Assembly (NCBI GenBank): GCA_963662795.1
Contig: OY759746.1
Coordinates: forward strand, 1,600,001 to 1,664,000
DNA length: 64,000 nucleotides
Source of the DNA: Spirochaetia bacterium
Lineage (GTDB): Bacteria > Spirochaetota > Spirochaetia > CADAEX01
Direction: 5' to 3'
The position numbers were made by a program, and so were the translations under genes. This document shows positions 3,413-38,243 of the stretch, one piece after another (position 1 is the stretch's first letter; every line of letters begins with the position of its first letter). The notes under the pieces are model-generated. The model saw only the letters and a program-made list of their open reading frames with translations, ran no database searches and was not told the DNA's origin.

Positions 3413-3454
3413 TCCTTGCCGGGTGATAAAGAGGGTAAGAGGCTATTAAAAGGA

Positions 3455-5824: not shown

Positions 5825-5840
5825 AAACGGGAGATATTAA

Positions 5841-7289: not shown

Positions 7290-8662
7290 TGGAATCCAAT
7301 CGAATTGAATATAAAAAAGAGCTGACAGTTTCTCTTGAGAAAGAAGTGGTAGCTTTTCTTAATTCCCGTGATGGCGGTGAGCTTTTTATCGGGGTGGATA
7401 ATAACGGCACTGCTTTAGGGGTAGGCAAAAGTGATCAGCTTCAGCTGGTGATAAAAGACAGAATAAAAAACAATATTCAACCTTCTGCCCTTGGGCTCTT
7501 TGATGTTGTTCTGGAAGTAAAGACTGGTAAGGAAATTATCAGAATAATCGTGGCTGGGGGGTTGGAGAAACCTTATTATCTGCGTAAATATGGCATGACA
7601 GAAAAAGGCTGCTTTATTCGGGTAGGCAGTGCCAGCGAACCTATGTCTCAGGAGATGATTGACTCGTTTTACAGCAGAAGAATCAGAAACACAATTGGGC
7701 GGATGGAGTCAACCCGGCACAATCTGACATTTGAGCAGCTTAAAATCTATTATGAAACCAGGGGACTGCATCTGGGCACCTCGTTTATGCAAAACCTTGA
7801 ACTTCTTACACCGGAAGGGAAACCCAATTTTGCCGCATATCTGCTTGCTGATGAAAATGGTGTCTCAATCCAGGTTGCCAAATACGCTGATAAGGGGAGA
7901 GTCAATCTTGTTGAGAATATTGATTTTGGCCGATGCTCTCTAGTCAAAGCCTGTAAAAACATTATGGACCGGATGAATGTGGAAAACACCATTTATACAC
8001 GGATCAGTGTACCACTGCGGGAAGAACGCCCGATGCTCAATCCGGTTGCAATGCGCGAGGCAGTTGTCAATGCAATTGTCCATAATGACTACTCCAATGG
8101 AGGCGCTCCCAGGTTTGAATTTTTTTCGGATCGTTTGGAGATAACATCATCCGGCGGATTACCTTATGGTCTTGGGATTGATGATTTCTTTGCCGGTCAT
8201 ACTGCTCCCCGTAATAAAGAGATTATGCGGGTTTTCCGTGATCTTGAAATTGTAGAACAGCTTGGTTCAGGCATACCGCGTATTTTAATAGCTTACGGAC
8301 GGGAATGTTTTCAGCTTAGTCAAAACTTTATCCGGTTAGTGTTTCCTTATGCCGTGGGTCTTGTTGAAGATGGAAAGACGCAGCAAGAGTCACAGCAAGA
8401 GTCACAGCAAGAGTCACAGCAAGAGTCACTTGAGATGCGTATTTTGAGTGTTCTCGGGCAGGATTCAAAAAGCAAAAAAGAAATTTCTGAACAATTAGGA
8501 CAAAAACAGGTTTCCGGACAATTAAATGTTGTTATCCGCCGATTGCTTGAAAATAAAATGATTGAATATACTATTCCGGATAAACCCCCAAGCCGCTTGC
8601 AAAAGTACCGTATTACCAAAAAAGGCCGTATCAGTGTAAAAAAAGAGGGCAGCGATGAATAA
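7289..8662 (+). CDS. Schlafen/AlbA_2 domain + HATPase_c_4 + C-terminal winged HTH protein
   Basis: N-terminal ESNRIEYK and AFLNSRDGGELFIGVDNNG (AlbA_2); REAVVNAIVHNDY, DRLEITSSGG, PRN, EQLGSG (HATPase_c_4); C-terminal SKKEISEQLG...IPDKPPSRLQKY (wHTH). GTG start overlaps the hsdM stop. Confidence 0.85.
   Translation: MESNRIEYKKELTVSLEKEVVAFLNSRDGGELFIGVDNNGTALGVGKSDQLQLVIKDRIKNNIQPSALGLFDVVLEVKTGKEIIRIIVAGGLEKPYYLRKYGMTEKGCFIRVGSASEPMSQEMIDSFYSRRIRNTIGRMESTRHNLTFEQLKIYYETRGLHLGTSFMQNLELLTPEGKPNFAAYLLADENGVSIQVAKYADKGRVNLVENIDFGRCSLVKACKNIMDRMNVENTIYTRISVPLREERPMLNPVAMREAVVNAIVHNDYSNGGAPRFEFFSDRLEITSSGGLPYGLGIDDFFAGHTAPRNKEIMRVFRDLEIVEQLGSGIPRILIAYGRECFQLSQNFIRLVFPYAVGLVEDGKTQQESQQESQQESQQESLEMRILSVLGQDSKSKKEISEQLGQKQVSGQLNVVIRRLLENKMIEYTIPDKPPSRLQKYRITKKGRISVKKEGSDE
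8381..8428 (+). repeat. Perfect 12-bp tandem repeat x4 (CAGCAAGAGTCA), encodes (QQES)4 linker
   Basis: Four exact copies at 8381, 8393, 8405 and 8417. Confidence 0.97.
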
Positions 8663-10355
8663 GCAAAGCGCTCAATTGCTTAAAAAACACTTCGATACTG
8701 CCCTTGAAAGCCCGGATGGTATTAAAAAACTAAAGGAGCTTATCCTCACCCTTGCCATGCAGGGCAAACTGGTAAAACAGGACCCCAAAGACCAGCCGGC
8801 AAGTGAGCTTCTTAAAGAGATACAGGCGGAGAAGGAACGGCTGATTGCAGAGGGGAAGATTAAAAAGCAGAAAGAGCTGCCGCCGGTGAAGCCGGGAGAA
8901 GTACCCTATGAAGTGCCGAAGGGGTGGGAGTGGGTGAGAAATGAAGAAATAGTAACTCTTCTTGGAGATGGCATACATGGAACTCCAATATTTGATGATA
9001 ATAGTGAGTTTTTTTTTATTAACGGTAACAATCTTAATGATGGAAAAATCGAAATAAAAGAAAACACTAAACGTGTTTCCGAAAATGAATACATGAAATA
9101 CAAGAAGAACTTGAATTATAGAACTGTTTTTGTTTCAATCAACGGAACAATTGGAAATGTAGCTTTTTATAACAATGAAAAAGTAATATTAGGAAAAAGT
9201 GCATGTTACTTTAATTTGTGTTCTGATATATCAAAGGATTTTATAAAAAAAGTAATTAATAGTAAATATTTTTTAGAATATACTTTTTCTGAAGCGACTG
9301 GGACAACTATAAAAAATGTATCACTAAAAACAATGCGCGAGTTCTTGATCCCACTTCCGCCTCTGGCTGAGCAAAAACGCATTGTTGCTAAAATTGACGA
9401 ACTCATGGCACTCTGCGACAGGCTGGAAAAAAAGCTCAAAGCCAAGAGTGAAAAACTGCTCGCAGTCCACACTGCGGCAATTAACCGCTTGATGAATGCA
9501 GCTGACAAAAATGATTTTGATACATCCTGGCAGTTTATCACATCTCACTTTGACCCGCTCTACAGCGTAAAAGAAAATGTTGCAGAGCTTAAAAAAGCCA
9601 TCCTCACCCTTGCCATGCAGGGCAAACTGGTAAAGCAGGACCCCAAAGACCAGCCGGCCAGTGAACTATTAAAAGAGATACAGGCTGAGAAGGAGCGGCT
9701 CATTAAAGAAGGGAAGATTAAAAAGCAGAAAGAACTGCCGCCCATAAAGCCGGAAAAAGTACCGTATGAGATTCCTGAGGGATGGGTTTGGACGAGATTA
9801 GGGGATATGTGCTTAAAAGTATCAGATGGATTTCACCATTCTGCAAAAAAAATATCGCAAGGAATAAGATACATTTCTGCTACGCATATTAATAACGGAT
9901 GGATAGAATGGGATAGTGGTCTTTTTGTATCTGAAAAAGAATATAATGAATTATTAAAAAAGACTGACTTAAAAAAAGGGGATATATTAATAGTTAATCG
10001 TGGGGCAGGATGTGGTGATGCAGCAATAATAAATATTAATGAAAAATTCTGTTTTCAAAATGCAGCAATTATCGGTTTTACACAAAATTTATTATTTGGA
10101 TCATATCTACTAAAATATATACATAAAAGCAAAGGTTATTTCCTTGAGAAATTTATACAAGGTGGAGCACAACCAATGCTTTCAAATAAATTGCTTGCAA
10201 CACATCCGTTTCCCATCCCCCCCCTTGCTGAACAAAAACGCATTGTCGCCAAAATTGACGAACTCATGGCACTCTGCGGCAGGCTGGAAAATAAGATAGA
10301 CCAGAAAACCGCAAAGCAGACGGCTTTATTTGATGCGGTGCTGGCTGCTATATGA
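8655..10355 (+). CDS. hsdS: Type I RM specificity subunit, two TRDs (long Type IB-like)
   Basis: Duplicated ILTLAMQGKLVKQDP...PYE.P.GW.W and PPLAEQKRIVAKIDELMALC blocks flank two AT-rich variable regions. Confidence 0.95.
   Translation: MNKQSAQLLKKHFDTALESPDGIKKLKELILTLAMQGKLVKQDPKDQPASELLKEIQAEKERLIAEGKIKKQKELPPVKPGEVPYEVPKGWEWVRNEEIVTLLGDGIHGTPIFDDNSEFFFINGNNLNDGKIEIKENTKRVSENEYMKYKKNLNYRTVFVSINGTIGNVAFYNNEKVILGKSACYFNLCSDISKDFIKKVINSKYFLEYTFSEATGTTIKNVSLKTMREFLIPLPPLAEQKRIVAKIDELMALCDRLEKKLKAKSEKLLAVHTAAINRLMNAADKNDFDTSWQFITSHFDPLYSVKENVAELKKAILTLAMQGKLVKQDPKDQPASELLKEIQAEKERLIKEGKIKKQKELPPIKPEKVPYEIPEGWVWTRLGDMCLKVSDGFHHSAKKISQGIRYISATHINNGWIEWDSGLFVSEKEYNELLKKTDLKKGDILIVNRGAGCGDAAIININEKFCFQNAAIIGFTQNLLFGSYLLKYIHKSKGYFLEKFIQGGAQPMLSNKLLATHPFPIPPLAEQKRIVAKIDELMALCGRLENKIDQKTAKQTALFDAVLAAI
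8742..9791 (+). repeat. Direct repeat A within hsdS (8742-8933 and 9600-9791)
   Basis: Near-identical DNA starting ATCCTCACCCTTGCCATGCAGGGCAAACTGG, offset 858 bp. Confidence 0.9.
9366..10291 (+). repeat. Direct repeat B within hsdS (9366-9430 and 10227-10291)
   Basis: GCTGARCAAAAACGCATTGTYGCYAAAATTGACGAACTCATGGCACTCTGCG shared. Confidence 0.9.
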
Positions 10356-11685: not shown

Positions 11686-11808
11686 TGAAATATATTGGAT
11701 TCTATGAATGAATAATATTATGGAAACATATAACTCCTGGCTTTATTGCTTGTTTTTATTTGACTGATGCAATATCACTTATATGTTGTTTTCCTCATCC
11801 TTTCCCGT

Positions 11809-11820
11809 GGAAACGATTCC
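11809..11820. promoter_or_regulatory. LacI-family operator-like palindrome upstream of the MFS gene
   Basis: GGAAACGATTCC with central CG. Confidence 0.4.
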
Positions 11821-11873
11821 CCGGGATTTCATTAGCAATCTGCAGGCTGACAATAATTAAGGAGCTTCATTTC

Positions 11874-13076
11874 ATGAGCGGCATTAAAAATATATATGGC
11901 AAACTTAACCTGCTCTCTTTCGGGATTGCCGGTTTTGTAATGTCTGCAAGAACCAGCGCTTTTTCATCAATCCGGGAAGAGTTTTCCTTAAATTATTCCA
12001 GCATTTCACTTCTTGTCCTTGTCTCGGGGATTATAATGCAGATTTCCACTTTCCTGACAGGCTATAGTTTAAGACGGTTCGGCTACAGGCTTAATACCGC
12101 AGTCTCGCTTTTGATTTTCGGTTCCTCCTTCCTCCTGATTTTTTTATCTGCCGGCTATCCGATGGTCTTTGTCTCATTCTGCATTATGCTTTTCGGGTTC
12201 GGAGCGGTTGTCCTTTCCCTCAACATGCATACAGGTTACCTTGCCGGAAAAAACAACGGGCCTGCGCTTATGAGGCTTCATCTCGGATTTTCAGTCGGCG
12301 CTCTTTTAGGGCCCAAGACAATAAGCTTTTTTATAACAAACGGAATGGACTGGCGGTTTGTCTATATCCCTGCCGCATGTCTTGTTTTTGCAATATCTGT
12401 TATTTATTTTATTCTTCCTGAAAAAAAGATGGAAATGGAAAATGAAAATGAATTATCTGAATCAGGCGTACAGGAAAAAAGTAAAGATACTTCCGCCGAC
12501 TTCAGTGTGGTTGATGGAAAAATCCTGAAAAAGGCCGTGTTTCTGTTTGTTGTTATCTTTATCGCGGGGCAGCTGTGGGAATACGGTTTTGGGACATGGT
12601 TTGTAATATTCTGCAGGCAGCACTTCAGTCTTTCAGAGATCACTTCCTCTACATATCTAACAATATTCTGGGTGTGCTTTCCCGTTAGCAGAATATCTGC
12701 CGGATATATTGTGAAGAAAACAGGGGCAGTCTCCCTGCTTGTGGTTTCGTTTATTTCCATTTTCCTGTTTGTCCTTGCGGGGTTTGTTTTTTCCGCTCCC
12801 CTGTTGTTCAGTCTGACAGATCTGTTTACGGCCCTTATTTACCCTCTCACAATGACTCTGATGCAGCAGACTCTCGGCAGGGAAAGATCCGACCTTATCG
12901 GCGTAATCAGTATGGTAGGCGGTTTTATCAACTATCTGCTTATTGCATCAGCCGGAAGCATCACGGATGTATTCGGAATTGCGGCAGGGTTCGGAAGCAC
13001 GGCGCTCTACCTGCTTGCCGGGGCCTGTGCGTCAATTATACTGGGTGTAAATATTTTATCGAAAAAAATATTATAA
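11874..13076 (+). CDS. MFS transporter (probable sugar permease)
   Basis: About 12 TM segments, RRFG loop, LHLGFSVGALLGP. Start at ATG 11874 after AAGGAG. Confidence 0.85.
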   Translation: MSGIKNIYGKLNLLSFGIAGFVMSARTSAFSSIREEFSLNYSSISLLVLVSGIIMQISTFLTGYSLRRFGYRLNTAVSLLIFGSSFLLIFLSAGYPMVFVSFCIMLFGFGAVVLSLNMHTGYLAGKNNGPALMRLHLGFSVGALLGPKTISFFITNGMDWRFVYIPAACLVFAISVIYFILPEKKMEMENENELSESGVQEKSKDTSADFSVVDGKILKKAVFLFVVIFIAGQLWEYGFGTWFVIFCRQHFSLSEITSSTYLTIFWVCFPVSRISAGYIVKKTGAVSLLVVSFISIFLFVLAGFVFSAPLLFSLTDLFTALIYPLTMTLMQQTLGRERSDLIGVISMVGGFINYLLIASAGSITDVFGIAAGFGSTALYLLAGACASIILGVNILSKKIL

Positions 13077-13346
13077 TTTGAATACGATAAAAGAAATGTG
13101 TAAATACTTTTTACTAAATTGAAAGGTAGTCAATATCTATCCGATTTAATATAACTGATTCATTGCTAGTTGTGGAATTCATCTGGCATTATGTTTTATC
13201 TTATTGAAAATAGTACTTTTTGTAGTTTATCCATATCCTTTTAACTTCCCGCTGCTGAAAAAATATTCAGTATTTAAACCATCACTTAAAATTTATATTT
13301 TTAATTTAGTTTTTAATGTTAATCACTGGTAGTTCAAAATATTTTG

Positions 13347-13404
13347 TTGACAATTTAGGTTTTCATGATATAATACTTATGCTGTTAACAGTTGACAGTT
13401 AACA
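13347..13404 (+). promoter_or_regulatory. Sigma70 promoter followed by GntR-type operator array
   Basis: TTGACA(13347)-16 nt-TATAAT(13369), then GTTAACA-GTTGACA-GTTAACA (13384-13404) containing the palindrome CTGTTAACAG. Confidence 0.75.
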
Positions 13405-13556
13405 AAGTAAAAGAAGAAATTAACATGCCAGTTACAATTACTTTAATGATAACATCTTTTTATTAATGGCTGTTTATGAGTTTGCAAACCTTATTGATGA
13501 TCTTAATAAATATTTAAAACAAAAATATGTTTCGGACTAAACTTATGGAGGATTGT

Positions 13557-14843
13557 ATGTCTAAAATTGTTATAAAGGATATAAAAGCAGGCGAAATAAT
13601 TGATAACAGGGGCATGCCTACCGTGCGCTCGTATGTCCGTGTAAATGATTCAGTCGCCTGGGCTGACGCGCCTAAAGGATCATCTACCGGCTCTTTTGAA
13701 GCTTTTGACCTGAGGGACGGCGGGAAAAGATACAATGGAATGGGTGTTAAAAAGGCAGTTAAAAATATTGAAGAGATAATTGCGCCTGCTTTAAGAAACC
13801 GGGAAGTATCATCATTAAATAAAATTGACAGGATAATGATTGATTTGGACGGCACGGAAAATAAATCAAAGCTGGGGGGGAATGCGATAACTGCAACATC
13901 CCTTGCCGTTGCTAAAGCTGCTGCAAAGGCTTTAGACCTGCCTCTTTATAATTATCTCAATCCGTTCGCGCATGTTCTGCCGGTCCCGCAGGCCTGTTTT
14001 ATAAACGGAGGCGTGCATGCTGACAACGGCCTGGAAACACAGGAAATGTGCGTAATGCCTGTTGGAGTCAATTCCTTTGCGGAAGCAATGGAAGTTTTAA
14101 ATGCTGTCTGGTTTTCATTAAAAGAGGTTTTAAGGAAAAATCTGGGGGGCGGGGCAAGCAATACAGGTGAAGACGGCGGATTCGCACCGCCGATTAATAA
14201 TCTTCACCAGGCAATGGATTATATCCTTGATGCTGTAAAAATTGCGTCATGCGAGGATATAGTTTTATATGGTTTTGACATGGCGGCAAGCGGTTATTTT
14301 CAAACATCAAATAACAGATATTTGTTCCAGGGAAAGGAAAGAACAAGGGAAGATATAATTGACTATTATGATGATCTTCTTGGGAAATACCCAAAGCTTG
14401 TATCCATAGAAGATCCGCTGGATGAAAATGATGTGGAAGGCTGGAGTATATTTACAAAAAAATTTCAGGACAGAATATTGATTATAGGAGATGACTTTTT
14501 TTCCACCAATATCGGCAGACTGAAAATAGGGGTAAAAAATAATGCAGGCAATGCGCTTCTTTGCAAGGTTAATCAAATCGGATCAATATCAGAAACTTTT
14601 GAGGCTGCTGGTTTTGCCCAGAGAAATAACATGTCAGTTGTCATGTCTCCGAGATCCGGTGAGACAGAAGATGATATCCTGTCAGATATAAGTGTTGCCT
14701 TAAACGCCGGGTGTTATAAAACAGGCGGAATGAGAGGAAGCGACAGGGGTTCCAATTACAACCGTTTTCTGGAAATTGAAAAAGAACTTGGAAGTGCTGC
14801 TGTTTATGCAGGAGCAGATTATTGCAGGAAAAATACTAACTAA
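13557..14843 (+). CDS. Enolase paralog with altered active site
   Basis: Full-length enolase motifs (GSSTG, NGGVHA, IEDP, GDD, KVNQIG, RSGETED, KTG), but GDEGG->GEDGG and SHRSG->SPRSG. Start at 13557 after GGAGG. Confidence 0.9.
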   Translation: MSKIVIKDIKAGEIIDNRGMPTVRSYVRVNDSVAWADAPKGSSTGSFEAFDLRDGGKRYNGMGVKKAVKNIEEIIAPALRNREVSSLNKIDRIMIDLDGTENKSKLGGNAITATSLAVAKAAAKALDLPLYNYLNPFAHVLPVPQACFINGGVHADNGLETQEMCVMPVGVNSFAEAMEVLNAVWFSLKEVLRKNLGGGASNTGEDGGFAPPINNLHQAMDYILDAVKIASCEDIVLYGFDMAASGYFQTSNNRYLFQGKERTREDIIDYYDDLLGKYPKLVSIEDPLDENDVEGWSIFTKKFQDRILIIGDDFFSTNIGRLKIGVKNNAGNALLCKVNQIGSISETFEAAGFAQRNNMSVVMSPRSGETEDDILSDISVALNAGCYKTGGMRGSDRGSNYNRFLEIEKELGSAAVYAGADYCRKNTN

Positions 14844-14856
14844 GCAGGTCTCTCAA

Positions 14857-16227
14857 ATGTATGTAAAGAACAGGGAACAGCTCCTATCCCACGGACTGGC
14901 AGAAGCCAGGGAAATGGCGGTCGAAATAATTGAAGCCTGTCTCGAAGCTGTTGATCCGTATAAGGCGGTAATAGATCAGATAAAGATAAATGATGATATA
15001 CTTTATTTTGATGAAAATAAAATTGATCTAAAAAAATTTGATAAAATATATGTGCTGGGCGCGGGAAAAGCGACATATAAAGTGGCAAGGGCAATTGATG
15101 AAATATTTTCCGGCAGAATACATCAGGGGCTTGTTGTTTTAAAAGATACCGATGAGAAAGAACTGAAGAATATCAGGATGATAAAAGGAAGACACCCGTA
15201 TCCGGATGAGAGCAGCTTTATCGCGGGAGAAGAAATAGAAAAAATAATAAAAAAAGTTAAAAAAAATGATCTGGTAATTTCTCTTATTACCGGAGGATCT
15301 TCCGCTTTATGCACAATCCCGGTGGAAGGAGTCAGCAGAAAGGATAAAATTGAAATTAATAAACTGCTTGTAACAAGCGGTGCTGATATTCTGGAAATAA
15401 ATACGGTAAGAAGACATCTTTCAAAAATAAAGGGGGGGTATTTAACCTCCTCGGTCGCCCCCGCGACTGTAATATCCTTAACAGTATCGGATGAAAAAAG
15501 AGACATATCGTGCTGGAATCATGACTGGACAGCGCCGGATAATTCAACTTTTGCAGATGCTGTAACTGTACTGAAAAAATATAAATTATGGGAATTAACA
15601 CCTGAATCCATTAAAAAGTATTTAAGAAATGGCAATAATGATAATGAAACACCCAAGAATATAACAGAAGGACAGGATATATATTATAAAATGGTGGTAA
15701 AGACAGTCGACTTATGGGAAGCCGCAAGAAGAAGGGCTTTGGAGCTGGGATTAACTCCCCAGCTATTGACAACAGTCTTAACCGGTGATTCCCTGAGTGC
15801 CGGGCGTTTCCTTGCATCTGTAGGAATATCCGCGAAAATAAATAATCTGCCGTTGAGCCCTCCATGCATGTTTTTCGTTACCGGCGAAACTTCCGTAAGG
15901 CTGGAAAGCAGTAAAAAATACGGAACCGGGGGCGCTGACCAGGAACTATCATTGGGAGGTTGTATAGATTTAACGGAAGATGAGAAAAATATACTGATCT
16001 GTTCAGTTGATACGGACGGTACTGACGGGCCGACTGATATTGCCGGTGGGATGACAGATTATTCAACAATAAACAGGGTCAGCAAAGCCGGTACTGATTT
16101 TTATGAACTGCTTGATTCACACAGTTCTTCTGAAATATTAAAGGCTTCAGGGGATTTTATTTTAACCGGTACGACCGGGACAAATGTAAATTCTTTTTCT
16201 TTTGTGATTGTTTTAAAGGACGCGTAA
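14857..16227 (+). CDS. Glycerate 2-kinase family (DUF4147/MOFRL, TtuD-like), divergent
   Basis: GAGKA, HPYPD, GGSSAL, GADILEINTVRRHLSKIKGG, TDGTDG, TGTNVN. Confidence 0.88.
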   Translation: MYVKNREQLLSHGLAEAREMAVEIIEACLEAVDPYKAVIDQIKINDDILYFDENKIDLKKFDKIYVLGAGKATYKVARAIDEIFSGRIHQGLVVLKDTDEKELKNIRMIKGRHPYPDESSFIAGEEIEKIIKKVKKNDLVISLITGGSSALCTIPVEGVSRKDKIEINKLLVTSGADILEINTVRRHLSKIKGGYLTSSVAPATVISLTVSDEKRDISCWNHDWTAPDNSTFADAVTVLKKYKLWELTPESIKKYLRNGNNDNETPKNITEGQDIYYKMVVKTVDLWEAARRRALELGLTPQLLTTVLTGDSLSAGRFLASVGISAKINNLPLSPPCMFFVTGETSVRLESSKKYGTGGADQELSLGGCIDLTEDEKNILICSVDTDGTDGPTDIAGGMTDYSTINRVSKAGTDFYELLDSHSSSEILKASGDFILTGTTGTNVNSFSFVIVLKDA

Positions 16228-16246
16228 TCAAAACAAGGAATATAAA

Positions 16247-17503
16247 ATGGATTTACCTGAAATATATAAAATTAAACAGATAATTAACCATCCCTTTATT
16301 GCTGATATTGATAAGGAAATAAGAAAGGAAATCAAGAAAATTGATTTAAGCAAAAAGGAAGGAAAGACAGTTGCGATTACCTGCGGCAGCAGAGGTATAA
16401 CTGACTATTTTTCCATTGTAAAATCTTTAGCTGATGTATTAAAAGAAAATTCAATGAAGCCGTTTATTGTTCCTGCCATGGGAAGTCACGGAGGAGGAAC
16501 GGCGGAAGGACAAAAAAAACTTCTGCACAATCTTGGTTTATCAGAAAAGGAATTAAAAATACCGATAAAATCATCTATGGAAGTTGTCAAAATCGGTGAA
16601 ACGGATGATGTTCCGGTTTATATAGATAAAACAGCAGCTGAAGCCGATTTTATTGTTTTATTTCATATCATAAAGGATCATCCGGATTTTTACCATAATT
16701 CATACGGAACAGGATTTCAGAAGATGCTGACAATCGGTCTTGGAAAATACAAAGGAGCCGATTGTTATCACAGGGCAATTATTTCACACGGCTTTGTAAA
16801 AATTATCAATGATGTTTCGAAGGTCGTTATTGAAAAAACAAATATTCTATTTGCTCTTGGAGTTGTTCAAAACGCATACGGCCGGACGGCAAAAATGGAA
16901 ATCTGCGAAAAAGATAAAATAACAGAAACAGAAAAAAAGCTCTTCAGGCTTGCATTGAAATATACAATGAAAATCCCGTTCGATGAATTTGATATTTTAA
17001 TTATTGATGAAATGGGCAAGGAGTACAGCGGAGCAGGATTTGAAACAAAGATTGTCGGAAGAATTGGTATGCCCTTATTAAGCAGAGAGCCGAAAAAACC
17101 AAAAATAAAACGGATTGTTGTCTGCGATATCACAAAGAAATCCGAGGGGAATGCGATAGGAATCGGAAATGCTGATTTCATAACAAAAAAACTTTATGAT
17201 AAAATAGACTTTAACTCGATGTATATAAACGCAATTGCCGCTTCTGAGGTTGAAGTCGCCAGAATCCCGGTCGTTTTGGAAAATGACAGAAAAGCCGTTG
17301 AAACTGCTATGGCAACAATTGGAAATATTGAAAGTAAAAATATTAAGCTTGTCAGAATAAAAAACACAAAAGAAATGGAGTATCTGTATATTTCAAAAGC
17401 ACTGTTAAAAGAAGTAAATGATTTAAAAAGAAAAACTGAAATAGAAATAATCAAGGAAGATTGTATGTTGCTTGATGAAGCTGATACCCTGGCAGAATTC
17501 TGA
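16247..17503 (+). CDS. LarA/DUF2088-like (lactate racemase domain) protein
   Basis: AITCGSRGI, PAMGSHGGGTAEGQ, KMLTIGLGK, GNAIGIGNAD, VRIKNT. Confidence 0.75.
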   Translation: MDLPEIYKIKQIINHPFIADIDKEIRKEIKKIDLSKKEGKTVAITCGSRGITDYFSIVKSLADVLKENSMKPFIVPAMGSHGGGTAEGQKKLLHNLGLSEKELKIPIKSSMEVVKIGETDDVPVYIDKTAAEADFIVLFHIIKDHPDFYHNSYGTGFQKMLTIGLGKYKGADCYHRAIISHGFVKIINDVSKVVIEKTNILFALGVVQNAYGRTAKMEICEKDKITETEKKLFRLALKYTMKIPFDEFDILIIDEMGKEYSGAGFETKIVGRIGMPLLSREPKKPKIKRIVVCDITKKSEGNAIGIGNADFITKKLYDKIDFNSMYINAIAASEVEVARIPVVLENDRKAVETAMATIGNIESKNIKLVRIKNTKEMEYLYISKALLKEVNDLKRKTEIEIIKEDCMLLDEADTLAEF

Positions 17504-17511
17504 TCAATAAA

Positions 17512-18186
17512 TCAATCATTTTTTAACATGTATTCTTTGATATGCTGAAGTCCTTTTTCCAAATGTTTTTCATATATCTTTTTCGCCTGGTTTATATCAA
17601 TATTTTTAATAGAGTTAAAGATCAATAAGTGCTCTTCAATATTTTCTTTTTTTGCCGGCATGATTAATACATTCTTGTCCATGGCAATACACAGGCTGAG
17701 TTGACATTCCAGATCTTCCCAGATTTTTATAAGCCGTTTGTTGTTTGTTAATTCACAGATTGTTTTGTGGAATTCAAGATCTTTTGATACATGCCCGTTT
17801 ATTGATTTTTGTTTTTTCATTTCGTCTAATATTTTTGATAATTTGTTTAAAATATCCTCATTTATGTTTTTAATAATTTCTTCAACCGCAAGAATTTCTA
17901 TGGCATTTCTTAATTTGAAAATTTCCTCGATATCCCTGATGGTAAATTTTACCACAAATGTTCCTTTATACGGAATTGTATTAACAAGACCTTCTTTTTC
18001 AAGATAACGAAAAGCCTCTCTAATCGGATAACGGCTTATATTCATTTCACGTGATAATCTTGCTTCAGAAATTTTTTCACCGGGTTTTATCCTGCCGCTG
18101 ATAATCGCGCTGCGGATTTCCATTGCGACATCACTGGTTAAAGGTTCTCTTTTTTGGGAATTAAATATATTTGCCATGTTTTGCAA
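17512..18186 (-). CDS. GntR family regulator (FCD domain)
   Basis: KPGEKISE..LS..MNISRYPIREA HTH; DLEFH, EH..I, H FCD motifs. Confidence 0.92.
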   Translation of the reverse strand: MQNMANIFNSQKREPLTSDVAMEIRSAIISGRIKPGEKISEARLSREMNISRYPIREAFRYLEKEGLVNTIPYKGTFVVKFTIRDIEEIFKLRNAIEILAVEEIIKNINEDILNKLSKILDEMKKQKSINGHVSKDLEFHKTICELTNNKRLIKIWEDLECQLSLCIAMDKNVLIMPAKKENIEEHLLIFNSIKNIDINQAKKIYEKHLEKGLQHIKEYMLKND

Positions 18187-18365
18187 TCCATTATTATGAA
18201 AATATTAAATTAACAGGAAATCTTTAATATTATGATATATTAAAAGATTTTATTCTATAGACTGTAATCTGGAAAAATACTTTTATTGCGGATAATACGG
18301 TGTTGGTTTTTACACTGCAATATCAGGCCCGGGAATACAAGAGATAATATATCTGATAATATCCA

Positions 18366-19322
18366 TCAGCTTCTGATTTTGTTTAAAAAAGCCGCCGCCC
18401 GGCTGTAATTCATCCCTTTGGTAAATTCAAAAATCGTGTCCTCACGGTTTCCTTCCGGAAGGGAGGCTTTGACAATAGGGTTTTTTATATAAAAGAGTAT
18501 GTCCTTTATGCTGATTCCGTTTTCAGCGGCATAGGCAAGAAAAGATAGTTCCGTAAAATCTTTTTTCCCGGCATTATACAGATATTCAATACCGTCCTGC
18601 ACCTGCTCAAACGGGCTTTTGGTATAGTGAAAAACCCTTGCAACAGGTTTTTTTTGAGCGATTATGCCGTTCTTTTTAAGTGTTGTTTCCATATCAGATA
18701 TCATTTCTGTTATTTCCTTCCATGGAAAATAAATTCTGAAAAGCATAACCGCTATGTCTGTAAGGTAATTATTCTTGTGAAGGAGGGCCGGGATATCATA
18801 GTTTATAATATAATATTCTTTGTGCTTCTTGATTGAATTACCGTATATTGTCATAAAATCTTCCGGTTCAACCCAGATATTAAACAGCCCTTCCTCATCA
18901 AGGGCGAATTTTTTCATGGCAGTATAGGGGTTTATTATTTTTGCTTTTTTAAAACTGCAGCCGTAGTGGTCTTCAAACATTTTGATCATGTTTGCTGTGA
19001 AATATCTCTTCCCTTTTTCCGCTGCCTTTATTTTGTTGGCGTAATGGTGTTCTATAATATGTTTTGAGTTTATGTAATCACCCGGGTAATTTGCGAGGTA
19101 TACAAGCCTGACATTTTCCGCATATTCCCGGTTTCCCTTTATTACTTTTAAAAGCGAGCTTTCAACCTCAACGCCGTTTGTCTCAGGCCGCAGATAGATA
19201 AAAACATCATTTGTTTTCCCTGTCGGATCCGGTCCAGGATAAGGTACCAGTACCGACGGGTTATGCACTATCCTTTTTTTGCGCGGCTTTTTTATCAAAA
19301 CTTCTTTCCGTACTGTTTCCAT
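18366..19322 (-). CDS. Hypothetical protein, weakly nucleoside-diphosphate-kinase-like
   Basis: 318-aa ORF overlapping the upstream gene; FIYLRPE, IIEHHYA, FHYTKSPFE. Confidence 0.6.
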   Translation of the reverse strand: METVRKEVLIKKPRKKRIVHNPSVLVPYPGPDPTGKTNDVFIYLRPETNGVEVESSLLKVIKGNREYAENVRLVYLANYPGDYINSKHIIEHHYANKIKAAEKGKRYFTANMIKMFEDHYGCSFKKAKIINPYTAMKKFALDEEGLFNIWVEPEDFMTIYGNSIKKHKEYYIINYDIPALLHKNNYLTDIAVMLFRIYFPWKEITEMISDMETTLKKNGIIAQKKPVARVFHYTKSPFEQVQDGIEYLYNAGKKDFTELSFLAYAAENGISIKDILFYIKNPIVKASLPEGNREDTIFEFTKGMNYSRAAAFLNKIRS

Positions 19323-21565: not shown

Positions 21566-22567
21566 ATGACCGTAACCATAAAAGATATTGCAGAAAAGGC
21601 AGGTGTATCATACGCCACAGTCTCAAGAGCGTTAAACTATAAATACGGTGTAAACCCCTCGACCCGCCGGCAGATCCTTGAAATAGCGTCCAGCATGAAT
21701 TACAGCCCCAATGCGATAGCCCGGGGACTTGTCAAAAAGCAGACACATACAATCGGCCTTATTATTCCTGATATAACAAATCCTTTTTTCCCGGAGGTTG
21801 CCCGCGGTGTTGAGGATATGTCCGAAAAAATGGGATACAGCATTTTTTTGTGCAATTCAAACTGGGATAAAACCAAGGAAAACCGTTATGTAAAACTCCT
21901 GATTGAAAAAAGGGTTGACGGACTGATTCTTGCCCCGTCTGCAAGTATTATAACTGAAGAGGACAGGCAGATATATTCACGCCTTCCGGTTGTCCTTATG
22001 AGCGGCGTACAGAGCGGATGCGGGACCGCTTCTGTTGTAGTTGACAATGTAAAAGGCGGGTTTATCGCAGGTAAGTATCTTATTGAAAAGGGGAGAAAAA
22101 AACTCTGCTATATAGGGGGAGCTGAAGATTCATTTTCAGTTAAGGAGAGATTTGAAGGGTTTTTTCAGGCAGCAGAAAGCAGTTTTTCAGTCAGCCTTTC
22201 ACCCGACCTTGTGGGGTTCGGTGATTACAGGCAGAAAAGCGGGTACAGGATAATGAAAGAGCTCCTTGAAAGCAGGAATATTCCTGATGCTGTTTTTGCG
22301 TCAAACGACCTTCTTGCGATCGGAGTTATTCAGGCAATAAGGGCATCAGGGCTTAAAGTGCCTGAAGACATTTCCGTGATAGGTTTTGACAATATTGCGG
22401 CGGCAGGATTCGGAGAGGTTGAACTTACAACCATTGAGCACCCCAAGTACAGAATGGGCGAACTTGCCGCCGGAATGCTTCTTGAAAAAATTGACCTGAA
22501 GCCGGAAATGCAGGAAAATAAAAGAGTGGTCCTTGAACCTGAACTTATTATAAGGAGAACAGCCTGA
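21566..22567 (+). CDS. LacI family transcriptional regulator (probable inositol repressor)
   Basis: TIKDIAEKAGVSYATVSRALN, YSPNAIARGL, VPEDISVIGFDN. Confidence 0.95.
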   Translation: MTVTIKDIAEKAGVSYATVSRALNYKYGVNPSTRRQILEIASSMNYSPNAIARGLVKKQTHTIGLIIPDITNPFFPEVARGVEDMSEKMGYSIFLCNSNWDKTKENRYVKLLIEKRVDGLILAPSASIITEEDRQIYSRLPVVLMSGVQSGCGTASVVVDNVKGGFIAGKYLIEKGRKKLCYIGGAEDSFSVKERFEGFFQAAESSFSVSLSPDLVGFGDYRQKSGYRIMKELLESRNIPDAVFASNDLLAIGVIQAIRASGLKVPEDISVIGFDNIAAAGFGEVELTTIEHPKYRMGELAAGMLLEKIDLKPEMQENKRVVLEPELIIRRTA

Positions 22568-22690
22568 TATAGAGGTATTTAAGGATGCACTTCCGGAATG
22601 GCAGTGTCTTAAGCGGTGATGCCGTGAATAGAAAAAAACCTTAAGGCTGATTCTCTTTTTTTAAACTAAATAAAAAAACTGGAGGAAAAG

Positions 22691-23485
22691 ATGGTTATCA
22701 AACAGAACACGGATTTCCCTGAAGGGTATACATCTGTAACTGAACTTGACGGAAAGTTCAGCGAAATGAAAATGGATTTTGGCATTCTTAAAATCAGGAA
22801 AGGGAAAAGCGAAACCTTTAAAGAGAAAAAGGAGAGAGCATATCTCCTTATGACAGGAAAAATTGTATTTGAATGGGAAGGGAAAAAACAGGAAGCATCC
22901 AGAAAGGATTTCTTCAGGGAAAGTCCATATGTCCTTCATGTTCCCGAAAATGTTGAAGTGAAAATTACCGCTCTTGAGGACTGTGAGATCGCAATCCAGA
23001 AAGTTAAAAATACCAGCATTTTTGAGAGCCGTCTTCACACACCTGATGAATGCATTTCGGCGGAATTCGGTAAAGGGACTCTCGGTGAAACATCAACCAG
23101 AATTGTAAGAACCGTTTTTGATGCGGCGACCTCACCAATGTCCGGAATGGTAATGGGTGAGGTAATAAACTTTCCGGGGAAATGGTCAAGCTACCCGCCT
23201 CATGCCCATGCACAGCCTGAAATTTACCACTACAGGTTTTATCCGAAACAGGGTTTTGGTTTTTCAATGCTTGATGACGATGCCTATGTCGTTAAAAACG
23301 GATACACCTGTACGCTGGACCCTGACAAGGTCCACTCCCAGGCTTCAGGCCCCGGATACGCGATGTATTATATATGGATGATTCCCCATATCCCTGAGCA
23401 GAAGTGGTCAAGGGAAACTACATACTTTCACAAAGACCACAAATGGCTGCTTGACGGCGGCGCCAAAATATGGCCGGAGGCATGA
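22691..23485 (+). CDS. iolB: 5-deoxy-glucuronate isomerase
   Basis: GKWSSYPPH, EIYHYRF.P.QGFG; iol context. Confidence 0.9.
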   Translation: MVIKQNTDFPEGYTSVTELDGKFSEMKMDFGILKIRKGKSETFKEKKERAYLLMTGKIVFEWEGKKQEASRKDFFRESPYVLHVPENVEVKITALEDCEIAIQKVKNTSIFESRLHTPDECISAEFGKGTLGETSTRIVRTVFDAATSPMSGMVMGEVINFPGKWSSYPPHAHAQPEIYHYRFYPKQGFGFSMLDDDAYVVKNGYTCTLDPDKVHSQASGPGYAMYYIWMIPHIPEQKWSRETTYFHKDHKWLLDGGAKIWPEA

Positions 23486-23591
23486 ACAGCGGGCAGGTCA
23501 AACGTGCCGGCAGGATATTTCCTGACGCAAAGGCTTCGTAAATTCAAACATTACGAATAACGAAATATAAATTATGGAATGGAGGGAATAA

Positions 23592-25526: not shown

Positions 25527-25542
25527 ACATAAGGAAAAAAAT

Positions 25543-26436
25543 ATGGATAAAAAGAAAGTCAAACTTGCCATGGCCCCGATCGGCTGGACAAACGATGACA
25601 TGCCTGACCTTGGAAGTGAAAACACATTCGAGCAGTGCGTAAGTGAAATGGCGCTTTCAGGATTTACAGGAAGCGAAGTGGGAAATAAGTATCCCAAAAA
25701 CCCGAAAGTACTGAAACAGTATCTTGACCCGCGGGGAATTCAGATTTGCAACCAGTGGTTCAGTTCATTTCTTACAACTGAAAGCCTTTCTTCAGTTAAG
25801 AAAGCGTTCAACGCTCAGCTTAAATTCCTTGAAGCTATGGGAGCATCGGTAATTGGACCTGCTGAACAGGGAAAAAGCATTCAAGGCAAACTCGATGTTC
25901 CTGTTTTCGCGGGCAAACCGACATTCACTGATGATGAATGGAAAAAACTTACAAGCGGTCTTAACGAGCTGGGTAAAATCGCGAAGGAAAAGGGTTTCAG
26001 GCTCTGTTATCACCATCACATGGGAACAGGTGTTCAGACCCTTGAGGAGACAGACAGGCTGATGGAAAATACAGACCCCTCATATGTCTACCTTCTTTTT
26101 GATTCCGGGCATTTTACGTTTTCAGGTGAAGATCCGGTAGCGGCACTTAAAAAACACATTAAAAGGGTAGGCCATGTCCACCTTAAAGATGTAAGACCCA
26201 ATGTGCTTAAAGCTGTAAAATCCAAAAAAATGAGTTTTCTTGACGCGGTCAGGGCCGGAGCTTTTACAATTCCAGGCGATGGATGTATAGATTTTCCTTC
26301 AATTTTTAAAGTACTTGAAGAGGGTAAATACAAGGGCTGGATGGTAGTTGAAGCGGAACAGGATCCCGCAAAAGCCAATCCGTTTGAATATGCTCTAAAG
26401 GCAAGAAAATATATAAGGGAAAATGCGGGTATATAA
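25543..26436 (+). CDS. iolE: Myo-inosose-2 dehydratase
   Basis: [33 protein letters not shown]. Start at ATG 25543. Confidence 0.96.
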
Positions 26437-26524
26437 TGATCAGGCCCTTTAAAGCCGGATAGAAACGCTGCCCCTCAATCGGGGCGGCATCCTGCCTTAG
26501 GCGGGACAATAAAAAGGAGAATAT

Positions 26525-27547: not shown

Positions 27548-27566
27548 AAATACAGGGAGGAAAATA

Positions 27567-28946: not shown

Positions 28947-28973
28947 TCTTTTTAAAAAAATAATGGGAAATCA

Positions 28974-29006: not shown

Positions 29007-29069
29007 GATTAATCTGTCTATACAAATTCCTGATTCACGATTTTTACTATTGAAAAATAAAAGTAAAAA

Positions 29070-38242: not shown

Positions 38243-38243
38243 A

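What the first reader, a model, noticed from the sequence alone, without database searches (positions are those of the whole stretch)
13557..17503. Co-diverged enolase + 2-kinase + LarA-like operon: candidate new 2-hydroxy-acid pathway
Seen: three co-oriented genes under one promoter, each with substitutions at normally conserved positions. Enolase has GEDGG and SPRSG. The kinase has GGADQE for GGRNQE, SDEKRDISCWNHDWT for SDVxGDxxxxIASGPT, and TNVNS for TNVND. The LarA-like protein has HIIKDHP for NRIKPHT and GFETKI for GMDxNV. Known: the canonical logic is glycerate -> 2-phosphoglycerate -> PEP, and LarA-superfamily enzymes epimerise 2-hydroxy acids. Inference: the same racemise/phosphorylate/eliminate logic retooled for a C3-substituted analogue. 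Candidates are 3-sulfolactate (giving PEP + sulfite, the reverse of ComA), tartrate, tetronates or 2,3-dihydroxybutyrate. Full-length ORFs and parallel changes argue for a new specificity rather than decay.
Basis: partly seen in the sequence, partly recalled or inferred. Interest (0 to 1): 0.82.

Follow-up and report, generated by a model that had tools for sequence, protein, structure and literature searches.

The report
Variant enolase–kinase–LarA hydroxy-acid operon
A three-gene operon encodes extra, altered copies of enolase, a glycerate-2-kinase-type kinase and a nickel-dependent epimerase that recur together in unrelated microbes and probably break down a still unidentified hydroxy acid.

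Summary
Window 13557-17503 holds enolase (eno2), a MOFRL kinase (kin2) and a group-22 LarA homologue (LarAH). They sit behind a perfect sigma-70 promoter and beside a convergent GntR/FCD regulator.

- **Paralogues.** The genome also has a canonical enolase (723 against 462 bits) and a canonical-type kinase.
- **Not private decay.** 119 of the 120 nearest enolase relatives lack His373 (yeast numbering, recalled). Every motif class displayed (116 of 120 aligned rows) has the general acid Glu211 as Asp (GDEGG to xEDGG). Metal ligands, Lys345 and Lys396 are kept.
- **Conserved cassette.** Enolase, kinase and LarAH lie together in 7 of 10 loci of this enolase clade examined. Enolase or kinase neighbours occur only with the window's LarAH sub-clade (5 of 9 loci, against 1 of 71 others).
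- **Selection and cofactor.** Among the differences shown, synonymous changes dominate (22 to 2 in larAH). larC, larE and larB are present.

Best reading (0.6): a catabolic cassette that imports, C2-epimerises, 2-phosphorylates and beta-eliminates a 2-hydroxy acid other than glycerate, giving an enol phosphate. The substrate is unknown; small neutral 2,3-dihydroxy acids are favoured, not sulfolactate. No description was found in print.

The parts
13347..13374 (+). Sigma-70-type promoter (TTGACA, 16 nt spacer, TATAAT, with TG extension) of the operon.
   Evidence: a 12-of-12 match, the only perfect one in 13000-18400. This is a consensus match only; no transcript data were available.
13383..13404 (.). 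22-bp near-perfect palindrome (TGTTAACAGT-TG-ACAGTTAACA) just downstream of the -10 box. Putative operator of the GntR/FCD regulator.
   Evidence: inverted repeat I5, 10-nt arms, 90% complementary, 2 nt apart. The operator role is inferred from its position. A core search (CTGTTAACAG, up to 1 mismatch) gave 3 matches in the window against 1.46 expected, which is not significant.
13557..14843 (+). eno2: enolase paralogue of the ENOv clade (the variant enolase clade that includes the window). It has Asp at the general-acid position (GEDGG, residues 204-208) and Pro at the His373 position (SPRSG, residues 364-368). Metal ligands, Lys345, Lys396, Glu168, His159 and Ser39 equivalents are kept.
   Evidence: Enolase_N plus Enolase_C, and TIGR01060 at 462 bits; 45% identical to the genome's canonical enolase, which scores 723 bits; clade-wide signature; model pLDDT 90.9.
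14857..16227 (+). kin2: MOFRL/DUF4147 kinase paralogue (class II glycerate-2-kinase family). The loop SDVxGDxxxxIASGxT is replaced by SDEKRDISCWNHDWT. The start is uncertain: ATG 14857 matches homologues, with 14776 and 14806 as alternatives.
   Evidence: It is 31% identical to the genome's other MOFRL kinase.
16247..17503 (+). LarAH: nickel-pincer-cofactor-dependent isomerase of LarA group 22, in the sub-clade with the SGxGF[DE]TK motif. The two catalytic His, the tether Lys and the Ni-ligand His equivalents are kept (H81, H145, K159, H175).
   Evidence: NF052515 at 458.9 bits against a cut-off of 400; invariant columns; model pLDDT 86.7, with the top 15 PDB fold matches listed all LarA-family; the link to enolase and kinase is specific to this sub-clade.
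17512..18186 (-). GntR/FCD-family transcription regulator, convergent with larAH. Probable repressor and sensor of the cassette.
   Evidence: GntR plus FCD domains. A GntR/FCD gene accompanies the cassette in L113, L117, L118, L122, L125, L127, L150 and L014.
11760..13076 (+). MFS transporter upstream of the promoter. Possible uptake system for the substrate; its membership of the cassette is uncertain.
   Evidence: MFS_1, with only weak resemblance to PgtP and lactate transporters. The nearest related cassette, L122, carries a TRAP DctPQM system in place of the MFS carrier.

Best explanation
The operon is a horizontally acquired catabolic cassette for a 2-hydroxy carboxylic acid that is not plain glycerate.

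**Proposed steps**
1. The acid enters the cell through the neighbouring MFS carrier. Relatives use a TRAP system instead.
2. It releases the GntR/FCD repressor from the palindrome beside the promoter.
3. LarAH, loaded with the nickel-pincer cofactor made by the genome's larC-larE-larB genes, inverts the C2 hydroxyl to the configuration the kinase accepts.
4. kin2 phosphorylates the C2 hydroxyl with ATP.
5. eno2 abstracts the C2 proton (Lys345 equivalent, two Mg2+) and expels the C3 substituent. The product is PEP or a C3-substituted PEP analogue.
6. A pyruvate-kinase-type enzyme could recover the phosphate from that product as ATP.

**Shown**
- Gene order, and the status of all three genes as paralogues.
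- The conserved signatures, and the conserved three-gene linkage across lineages.
- Purifying selection.
- Presence of the cofactor genes.

**Inferred**
- Every catalytic step.
- The direction of flux.
- The roles of the regulator, operator and transporter.
- The nature of the substrate.

My ranking of substrates is weak. First come small neutral 2,3-dihydroxy acids carrying an extra C3 substituent: tetronates such as erythronate or threonate, 2,3-dihydroxybutyrate, and possibly larger sugar acids. Next come 3-amino or 3-thio analogues. 3-Sulfolactate and tartrate come last.
For: **1. Redundancy**
- The genome has a canonical enolase (723 bits on TIGR01060, against 462 for eno2) and a second MOFRL kinase with the canonical motifs.
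- That second kinase sits in another cluster with a LarA, a second group-22 LarAH and a TRAP system, but with no enolase.

**2. Targeted active-site change in eno2**
- The Glu211 and His373 positions are replaced. The equivalents of Asp246, Glu295, Asp320, Lys345, Lys396, Glu168, His159 and Ser39 are kept. The numbering is recalled.
- Of the 120 nearest relatives, 119 lack His373: 78 SER, 36 SVR, 2 SPR and 3 SERSGK. The one exception is a 703-aa protein.
- All motif classes displayed, covering 116 of 120 aligned rows, carry ED in place of DE.

**3. Kinase relatives**
- The commonest loop variants shown among the nearest kinase relatives (86 of 121 rows) all carry W-NxDW. The commonest variants at the GGRNQE position (82 rows) are all GGANQE.

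**4. Linkage**
- LarAH accompanies the ENOv enolase (the window's variant clade) in 7 of 10 loci: the window, L113, L116, L118, L122, L124 and L125.
- A MOFRL kinase accompanies it in 9 of 10.
- Among 80 metagenome loci with group-22-like LarAH, any enolase or MOFRL kinase was present in 5 of the 9 loci of the window's sub-clade. Among the 71 others the only case was L150, a truncated LarAH whose N-terminal motif belongs to the same sub-clade.

**5. Selection**
- Of the differences shown (40 of 151), larAH has 22 synonymous and 2 non-synonymous codon changes against a wastewater relative.
- eno2 has 8 synonymous and 3 non-synonymous changes against a sister strain.

**6. Cofactor**
- larC, larE and larB lie together at C1:2462352-2465187.

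**7. Catabolic setting**
- GntR/FCD or IclR regulators and TRAP or MFS carriers accompany the cassette.
- The nearest solved relatives of the L122 and L126 TRAP binding proteins include 4P47 (ligand-free) and 7BBR (2-keto-3-deoxygluconate). PMC11668362 (passages read) places these among homologues otherwise crystallised with pantoate or erythronate.

**8. Distribution**
- The variant enolase is absent from the 40 relatives and from the 400 other same-phylum genomes searched.
- It is present in 5 of 401 genomes of a Desulfobacteria-type class.
Against: - The only activities known for the enolase subgroup and for MOFRL kinases are 2-phosphoglycerate dehydration and glycerate 2-phosphorylation (PMC2063504, passages read). 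eno2 still passes the curated enolase cut-off.
- LarA homologues that racemise glycerate are known (PMC11770544, abstract and passages read). A plain L-/D-glycerate route is therefore not excluded.
- Residue 373 varies among sub-clades (Glu, Val, Pro). It may simply be dispensable rather than specificity-determining.
- Neighbour genes differ between lineages and do not point to one substrate. They include MttB-family plus MtaA-like methyltransferases, a dihydroxy-acid dehydratase, and TRAP or MFS carriers.
- No pyruvate-kinase-like gene lies in the window ORFs scanned, 1-42443.
- No expression data exist and no biochemical test was possible.
- The residue roles in enolase rest on recalled literature, not on a tool result.
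- The selection count covers only the 40 of 151 differences that displayed. The wastewater contigs have a depth under 5.
Confidence: 0.6

Rival explanations
1. It is an ordinary L-/D-glycerate utilisation cassette. LarAH racemises L-glycerate, kin2 makes 2-phosphoglycerate, and eno2 is a dedicated but otherwise normal enolase. The substitutions would be neutral or only tune kinetics.
For: - eno2 scores 462 bits on the curated enolase model, above the cut-off of 300.
- All metal, phosphate and carboxylate ligands are kept.
- Characterised MOFRL kinases all give 2-phosphoglycerate and accept some L-glycerate (PMC2063504).
- Some LarA homologues racemise glycerate (PMC11770544).
- GGxNQE and TNVNS variants also occur in the solved PH0495 protein.
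Against: - The general-acid Glu211 and His373 equivalents are replaced in essentially the whole clade.
- The genome already has a canonical enolase and a canonical-type kinase next to another LarAH. The cassette would therefore be fully redundant.
- The kinase loop and the LarAH substrate-facing motif are changed as well.
Confidence: 0.22
2. The cassette removes a non-hydroxyl C3 group, which would give PEP itself. Candidates are ammonia from 2-phospho-isoserine, H2S from 2-phospho-3-mercaptolactate, or sulfite from 2-phospho-3-sulfolactate. The last is the first reader's preferred idea.
For: - The altered residues are those facing C3 (roles recalled).
- Glu at position 373 in 78 of 120 relatives would suit a cationic leaving group.
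- Amino-acid-type neighbours occur near some cassettes, mostly of the sister ENOp clade: aminotransferases, alanine dehydrogenase, an ornithine-cyclodeaminase-family protein, a creatininase-family protein and MttB-family proteins.
Against: - Val or Pro at the same position in the other sub-clades, including the window, does not fit a charged leaving group.
- No cationic residue is gained that could hold a sulfonate.
- No sulfite-handling or ammonia-handling gene lies in the window ORFs scanned, 1-42443.
- The neighbour genes are inconsistent between lineages.
Confidence: 0.12
3. eno2 is not a lyase in this setting. It might be a regulatory, moonlighting or inhibitor-resistant enolase copy, or it might catalyse another enolate-based reaction such as an isomerisation. 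In that case the linkage to the kinase and LarAH reflects something other than a linear pathway.
For: - Two catalytic positions are changed.
- Enolases are known moonlighters (recalled).
- Natural phosphonate enolase inhibitors exist (PMC13302981, passage read).
Against: - The base Lys345, Lys396 and all three metal ligands are invariant in the clade.
- The tight three-gene linkage, with catabolic regulators and carriers, argues for a metabolic pathway.
Confidence: 0.06

Closest known systems
Enolase (phosphopyruvate hydratase, EC 4.2.1.11; TIGR01060, Pfam Enolase_N/Enolase_C)
   Same: - Same two-domain fold: model pLDDT 90.9, and 386 bits to M. jannaschii enolase 2PA6.
- Same metal ligands, catalytic Lys, and phosphate- and carboxylate-binding residues.
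   Different: - 45% identical to the host's own enolase and 260 bits lower on the family model.
- GDEGG becomes GEDGG, so the general-acid position is Asp.
- SHRSG becomes SPRSG. LIK becomes LCK.
- KTGSLSRSDR becomes KTGGMRGSDR.
- The residue after the first metal ligand block (Glu251) becomes Gly.
- No solved structure belongs to this clade.
Class II (MOFRL) glycerate 2-kinase, e.g. TM1585 (2B8N), PH0495 (1X3L) and the Thermoproteus tenax enzyme
   Same: - DUF4147 plus MOFRL architecture.
- The family motif D-x(0,2)-G-x(0,1)-D-[GP]-x(4)-[APS]-[ACDGST] is present as DGTDGPTDIAG (PMC2063504; window sequence).
- 281 bits to 1X3L.
   Different: - The loop SDVxGD....IASGPT is replaced by SD(EK/AI)xDxxxWNxDWTxPD throughout the sub-clade.
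- Only 31% identical to the host's other MOFRL kinase.
- Always partnered with a variant enolase.
LarA superfamily group 22 (NF052515; 'unknown function' in Desguin et al. 2020, PMC7583248)
   Same: - Scores above the curated cut-off.
- LarA fold over both domains.
- Catalytic and cofactor residues are kept.
   Different: - The substrate-facing motif GMDTN(V/I) is GF(D/E)TK(I/V) in the enolase-linked sub-clade.
- The window and its closest relatives also have HIIKDH(P/S) in place of NRIK(K/P)HT.
- The paper lists dehydrogenases, dihydroxy-acid dehydratases, TRAP systems and sugar kinases as typical group-22 neighbours. 'Enolase' does not occur in the group-22 entry of its neighbour table, and 'glycerate kinase' occurs nowhere in its supplements.
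Serine-cycle / glycerate branch: hydroxypyruvate to D-glycerate to 2-phosphoglycerate (MOFRL kinase) to PEP (enolase)
   Same: The same kinase-then-enolase logic and the same protein families.
   Different: - In that pathway the housekeeping enolase is used.
- Here a dedicated, altered enolase and an epimerase are fixed in one operon.
- This pathway description is recalled, not taken from a call.
Sister cassette 'ENOp' found here (L013, L014, L015, L031, L037, L044, L119-L121, L126)
   Same: - An enolase paralogue lacking His373 (SERSGETED) lies next to a MOFRL kinase.
- In 5 of 10 loci there is also a LarA-family gene.
   Different: - It keeps GDEGG.
- It changes the phosphate-side loop: NGGxHAxN becomes NGGKLTxN, and GASTG becomes GRSTG.
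- Its kinase has GGPNQE and lacks the WNxDW loop.
- Its regulators are IclR or GntR.
- It forms a separate branch of the tree.

Membership tests
Enolase (EC 4.2.1.11) | Score above the curated family cut-off (TIGR01060, 300 bits). | tested here: met
   462.4 bits. The genome's canonical copy scores 723 bits.
Enolase (EC 4.2.1.11) | Three carboxylate metal ligands (Asp246, Glu295, Asp320) and the catalytic Lys345 and Lys396. Numbering is recalled. | tested here: met
   FDMAAS, SIEDPL, GDDFF, CKVNQIG and YKTGG align with the canonical motifs. The columns are invariant in A1.
Enolase (EC 4.2.1.11) | General acid Glu211 within GDEGG. The role is recalled. | tested here: not met
   The motif is GEDGG, with Asp at the aligned position. 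The same holds in all motif classes displayed, covering 116 of 120 rows.
Enolase (EC 4.2.1.11) | His373 within SHRSGET. The role is recalled. | tested here: not met
   The motif is SPRSGET. Of the 120 nearest relatives, 119 lack the His.
Enolase (EC 4.2.1.11) | Converts 2-phosphoglycerate to PEP. | not testable with these tools
   This needs an enzyme assay.
MOFRL class II glycerate 2-kinase | DUF4147 plus MOFRL domains, and the family motif D-x(0,2)-G-x(0,1)-D-[GP]-x(4)-[APS]-[ACDGST]. | tested here: met
   for the domains. The motif comes from PMC2063504 and is present as DGTDGPTDIAG.
MOFRL class II glycerate 2-kinase | Score above the NCBIfam equivalog cut-offs (NF041176 at 550, NF040791 at 670). 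| tested here: inconclusive
   224 and 164 bits. The genome's canonical-type kinase also scores only 226 and 197 bits, so these archaeal models do not discriminate.
MOFRL class II glycerate 2-kinase | Loop SDVxGDxxxxIASGxT, shared by the solved and canonical members. | tested here: not met
   The loop is SDEKRDISCWNHDWT. The sub-clade consensus is SD..xDxxxWNxDWT.
MOFRL class II glycerate 2-kinase | Phosphorylates D-glycerate at C2. | not testable with these tools
   This needs an enzyme assay.
LarA superfamily, group 22 | Score above the curated cut-off of NF052515 (400 bits). | tested here: met
   458.9 bits.
LarA superfamily, group 22 | Equivalents of LarA His108 and His174 (catalysis), Lys184 (cofactor tether) and His200 (Ni ligand). 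| tested here: met
   H81, H145, K159 and H175 are invariant in A3. I mapped them by motif onto the residue table of PMC7583248. The K159-H175 spacing of 16 equals the 184-200 spacing.
LarA superfamily, group 22 | LarA two-domain fold. | tested here: met
   Model pLDDT 86.7. The top 15 PDB fold matches listed are all LarA-family, with probability 1.00 and 387-488 aligned columns.
LarA superfamily, group 22 | Cofactor biosynthesis genes larB, larC and larE in the genome. | tested here: met
   All three score above their cut-offs and are adjacent at C1:2462352-2465187.
LarA superfamily, group 22 | Group-22 signature at the substrate-facing positions (GMDTN). | tested here: not met
   The motif is GFETK. 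The enolase-linked sub-clade has GFDTK.

The most novel reading that the evidence does not exclude
The enolase subgroup, so far known for a single reaction (recalled), may contain at least two functionally divergent clades. These are ENOv, the window's variant clade, and its sister clade ENOp. Each is hard-wired to its own MOFRL 2-kinase and a nickel-pincer epimerase. Together they would form a modular 'epimerise, 2-phosphorylate, eliminate' route. That route would turn 2-hydroxy acids other than glycerate into PEP or PEP analogues, so that the dehydration or elimination costs no net ATP. The window's cassette would then be the first tractable example in a complete genome, giving new reactions for all three families at once.
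Probability: 0.35. Interest if true: 0.85.

Novelty: new variant of a known kind. Interest (0 to 1): 0.68.

Why it matters
- **Annotation.** Public records seen here name clade members 'phosphopyruvate hydratase' or 'enolase'. A conserved enolase clade lacking two catalytic residues is therefore being mis-annotated, and with it the metabolic models of the genomes that carry it.
- **LarA group 22.** It has no assigned function (PMC7583248). The fixed partnership with a 2-kinase and an enolase-type lyase gives a concrete handle for finding a substrate, at least for this sub-clade.
- **New reactions.** If the substrate is not glycerate, all three families gain a new reaction. It would also add a new ATP-neutral way of dehydrating or de-functionalising hydroxy acids in anaerobes.
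- **Testability.** The genome is closed (one contig, 3.93 Mb) and carries all the cofactor genes, so the hypothesis can be tested directly.

Tried and rejected
- **Kinase scan of genome contigs.** It did reveal the sister ENOp loci.
- **Literature.** Full-text searches for the combination found nothing:
  - LarA + nickel-pincer + enolase: 0 papers.
  - Enolase paralog/homolog/-like + glycerate 2-kinase/MOFRL: 1 irrelevant paper.
  - DUF2088/lactate racemase + glycerate kinase + enolase + gene cluster: 0 papers.
  - 'Enolase' and 'kinase' are absent from PMC11770544 and PMC12611868.
  - The only 'enolase' hit in the supplements of PMC7583248 is an enolase-superfamily COG outside the group-22 entry.
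- **Earlier findings of this scan.** Nothing by place or by sequence.
- **Expression.** No RNA holder was listed for the operon.
- **Solved structures.** None belongs to either variant enolase clade.
- **Composition.** The operon has GC 0.34-0.42 against a genome value of 0.397 +/- 0.05. This gives no signal of foreign origin.
- **Operator core.** The match count in the window is not significant.
- **Organism name.** Cluster look-ups gave none for the host. Protein-atlas taxa for the neighbouring 318-aa protein are commonest in Spirochaetota. That is only a hint about the host phylum.
- **Mechanism citation.** The passage on enolase residues in PMC8495383 is garbled, so I did not use it. The residue roles are recalled.
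- **Structure models.** I used them only to confirm folds. No pocket analysis or docking was possible.
- **** timed out and was rerun with faster settings.

Full report
**1. What is there**

Window 13557-17503 carries three co-oriented open frames.
- **eno2**, 13557-14843, 428 aa. It has Enolase_N and Enolase_C and scores 462 bits on TIGR01060.
- **kin2**, ending at 16227. It has DUF4147 and MOFRL. ATG 14857 is the start that matches homologues; 14776 and 14806 are alternatives.
- **LarAH**, 16247-17503, 418 aa. It has a weak Lar_N match and scores 458.9 bits on NF052515, 'nickel pincer cofactor-dependent isomerase, group 22', against a cut-off of 400.

Signals around the genes:
- A 12-of-12 sigma-70 consensus with a TG extension lies at 13347-13374.
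- A 22-bp palindrome follows at 13383-13404.
- GGAGG precedes ATG 13557.
- If kin2 starts at 14857, the gaps between the genes are 13 and 19 nt.
- A GntR/FCD regulator converges on larAH at 17512-18186, and an MFS carrier lies upstream at 11760-13076.

**2. The genes are extra copies**

- The same closed genome (3.93 Mb, one contig) has a canonical enolase at C1:2893529-2894803. It scores 723 bits and carries GDEGG and SHRSGETED.
- It also has a second MOFRL kinase with GGRNQE, SDVVGDRLDTIASGLT and TNVCD.
- Pairwise identities are 45% for the enolases, 31% for the kinases and 39% for the two group-22 LarAHs.
- The second kinase sits in its own cluster at C1:2626924-2636409. That cluster holds TRAP DctPQM, RidA, an iron alcohol dehydrogenase, a LarA-type racemase (474 bits), a second group-22 LarAH (461 bits) and the kinase. 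It holds no enolase.
- The genome gives 8 Lar_N matches.
- An adjacent larC-larE-larB set lies at C1:2462352-2465187, so the nickel-pincer cofactor can be made.

**3. The substitutions are clade signatures**

*Enolase.*
- Among the 120 nearest relatives, 119 lack the His of SHRSGET: 78 SER, 36 SVR, 2 SPR and 3 SERSGK. The exception is a 703-aa protein.
- In the alignment of 119 relatives plus eno2, all motif classes displayed (116 of 120 rows) read xEDGG[FY]APP in place of GDEGGFAP.
- The same relatives share LCKVNQIG, KTGG[IM]RGSDRG and QE[FY]CVMP.
- The metal-ligand blocks, Lys345 and Lys396 are unchanged.
- In yeast numbering (recalled, not checked by a tool) the two hits are the general acid Glu211, now Asp, and His373. 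Both face the C3 hydroxyl of 2-phosphoglycerate.

*Kinase.*
- The commonest loop variants shown (86 of 121 rows) all carry SD..xDxxxWNxDWTxPD. The commonest variants at the GGRNQE position (82 rows) all read GGANQE.
- GGxNQE and TNVNS are not diagnostic, because the solved PH0495 protein has GGPNQE and TNVNS.

*LarAH.*
- The nearest relatives carry NRIK[KH]HT and SGxGFDTKVVGR.
- The window and its three closest relatives have HIIKDH[PS] and GFETK.
- The two catalytic His, the tether Lys and the Ni-ligand His equivalents are invariant. I mapped them onto the residue table in the supplement of PMC7583248.
- The LarAH model (pLDDT 86.7) matches only LarA-family structures among the top 15 listed. 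The eno2 model has pLDDT 90.9.

**4. The three genes travel together**

*Whole-genome searches with the enolase-clade profile.* I call the window's variant enolase clade ENOv.

| Group searched | Genomes with a true ENOv member |
|---|---|
| 41 genomes: the window's own plus 40 relatives | 1 (the window's own; canonical enolases score about 490 bits) |
| 401 genomes of its phylum, including its own | 1 (its own) |
| 401 genomes of a Desulfobacteria-type class | 5 (705-773 bits) |
| 401 genomes of that class's phylum | 0 |

*ENOv loci, ten in all* (the window, L113-L118, L122, L124, L125).
- A MOFRL kinase is adjacent in 9. The exception is L114.
- A group-22 LarAH is present in 7: the window, L113, L116, L118, L122, L124 and L125.
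- It is absent within the 16-20 kb examined in L114 and L115. It is undetermined in L117, where the contig ends.

*The converse test.*
- 80 metagenome loci were chosen by LarAH similarity.
- Any enolase or MOFRL kinase lay on the contig in 5 of the 9 loci whose LarAH belongs to the window's sub-clade (profile score 600 or more, motif ending in K).
- Among the other 71 loci the only case was L150. Its LarAH is cut by the contig end, and its N-terminal motif is that of the same sub-clade.

*Further points.*
- The closest metagenome relative, L122 (LarAH 66% identical), has the window's gene order. It also has a GntR/FCD gene and a TRAP DctM-DctP-DctQ system.
- Recurring contig lengths among the three protein searches also point to co-location in many more contigs. 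This is circumstantial.

**5. Selection**

- A sister strain (coded run X4) carries the operon with 17 differences.
- A wastewater relative (X8) is more diverged.
- Of the 40 differences displayed out of 151, larAH shows 22 synonymous and 2 non-synonymous codon changes. eno2 shows 8 and 3.
- The X8 contigs have a depth under 5, but sequencing errors would not favour third codon positions.

**6. Clues to the substrate**

- *Regulators.* They are of catabolic types: GntR/FCD in the window, L113, L117, L118, L122, L125, L127 and L150, and IclR in the sister clade.
- *Carriers.* They are MFS or TRAP.
- *TRAP binding proteins.* Those of L122 and L126 are nearest to 4P47, 7BBR, 4NQ8, 4PDH and 4P9K. 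PMC11668362 (passages read) gives 4P47 as ligand-free and 7BBR as bound to 2-keto-3-deoxygluconate. It describes the other liganded homologues in its set as bound to pantoate or erythronate, and warns that such ligands were co-purified. I did not confirm the ligands of 4NQ8, 4PDH and 4P9K.
- *Group 22 as a whole.* PMC7583248 lists dehydrogenases, dihydroxy-acid dehydratases, TRAP systems and sugar kinases as its usual neighbours. One ENOv locus, L116, has a dihydroxy-acid dehydratase next door.
- *One ENOv sub-clade (SVR).* An MttB-family and an MtaA-like methyltransferase gene follow the cassette in L113, L118 and L124. An MttB fragment flanks the lone LarAH in L127. I cannot explain this.
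- *Active-site chemistry.* The changed enolase positions become Asp, Glu, Val, Pro or Cys. That argues for more room or a neutral or cationic C3 group rather than an added anion. For this reason I rank sulfolactate and tartrate low. This is inference.

**7. A sister system**

- A second enolase clade, which I call ENOp, keeps GDEGG. It has SERSGETED, NGGKLTxN in place of NGGxHAxN, and GRSTG in place of GASTG.
- It also lies next to a MOFRL kinase (GGPNQE, no WNxDW loop). In 5 of 10 loci a LarA-family gene is also present.
- It occurs in Desulfobacteraceae, Anaerolineaceae, Chloroflexota and Bathyarchaeia.
- The epimerase-kinase-'enolase' template has therefore been used at least twice.

**8. 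Verdict**

- The interpretation 'new 2-hydroxy-acid pathway' is the best-supported reading (0.6), but no substrate is shown.
- A plain glycerate route remains possible (0.22).
- I found no description of this cassette or of either variant enolase clade in the searchable literature. Public records seen here name clade members as ordinary enolase.
- PDF supplements and subscription journals were not searchable and could hold relevant data.

Noticed in passing
L013:8617-11359, L037:8643-11359, L014, L015:8666-11341, L031:3863-6579, L044:2186-4916, L119-L121, L126:4287-8550: A second enolase paralogue clade, ENOp. It has SERSGETED, NGGKLT in place of NGGxHA, and GRSTG in place of GASTG, but keeps GDEGG. 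It also lies beside a MOFRL kinase (GGPNQE) and often a LarA-family gene. It occurs in Desulfobacteraceae, Chloroflexota, Anaerolineaceae and Bathyarchaeia. Its neighbours include alanine dehydrogenase, a PanE-like reductase, an ornithine-cyclodeaminase-family gene, a creatininase-family gene and a D-2-hydroxyacid dehydrogenase.
   Followed up: partly
own genome C1:2626924-2636409 (locus L202:6924-16409), outside the window: A second cluster on one strand holds TRAP DctPQM, RidA, an iron alcohol dehydrogenase, a LarA-type racemase, another group-22 LarAH, a 224-aa protein without family and the canonical-type MOFRL kinase. A sigma-54 activator lies upstream. The genome has 8 Lar_N matches in all.
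   Followed up: partly
window 13374-13456: In the sister strain (coded run X4) one contig replaces these 81 bases with 2917 other letters. The replaced stretch includes the palindrome between the promoter and eno2. The sister strain's differences in eno2 are also bunched at 13543-13639.
   Followed up: no
window 14584-16676: One low-depth contig of coded run X7 joins 14584 to 16676. It skips 2091 bases: the end of eno2, all of kin2 and the start of larAH. This could be a deletion variant or an assembly artefact.
   Followed up: no
L113:3039-5609, L118:5920-8384, L124:2976-6927, L127:1-599: MttB-family genes (non-trimethylamine score range) lie directly beside the ENOv cassette in these Desulfobacteria-type contigs. 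MtaA/CmuA-like methyltransferase genes accompany them in L113, L118 and L124. No corrinoid-protein gene was seen next to them.
   Followed up: partly
window 3416-10355: A type I restriction-modification system (HsdR, HsdM, HsdS) has a Schlafen/AlbA_2-HATPase-Fic-C gene inserted between hsdM and hsdS. It lies just upstream of the cassette region.
   Followed up: no
window 21566-30121 and 36468-41064: A LacI-regulated cluster resembles inositol catabolism: KduI/IolB, a TPP enzyme, a xylose-isomerase-like TIM barrel, a GFO/IDH/MocA protein and an aldehyde dehydrogenase. Further on lie two consecutive split transketolase pairs.
   Followed up: no
relatives G003-G019 (genus g2): None of the 9 genomes of a sister genus in the same family gave any match to the enolase profile. 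These genomes are 1.2-1.8 Mb and 74-99% complete.
   Followed up: no
window 18366-19322 (-): A 318-aa protein with no Pfam or NCBIfam match lies between the GntR gene and an ADP-forming acyl-CoA synthetase gene. Its nearest protein-atlas clusters are unnamed and commonest in Spirochaetota.
   Followed up: partly
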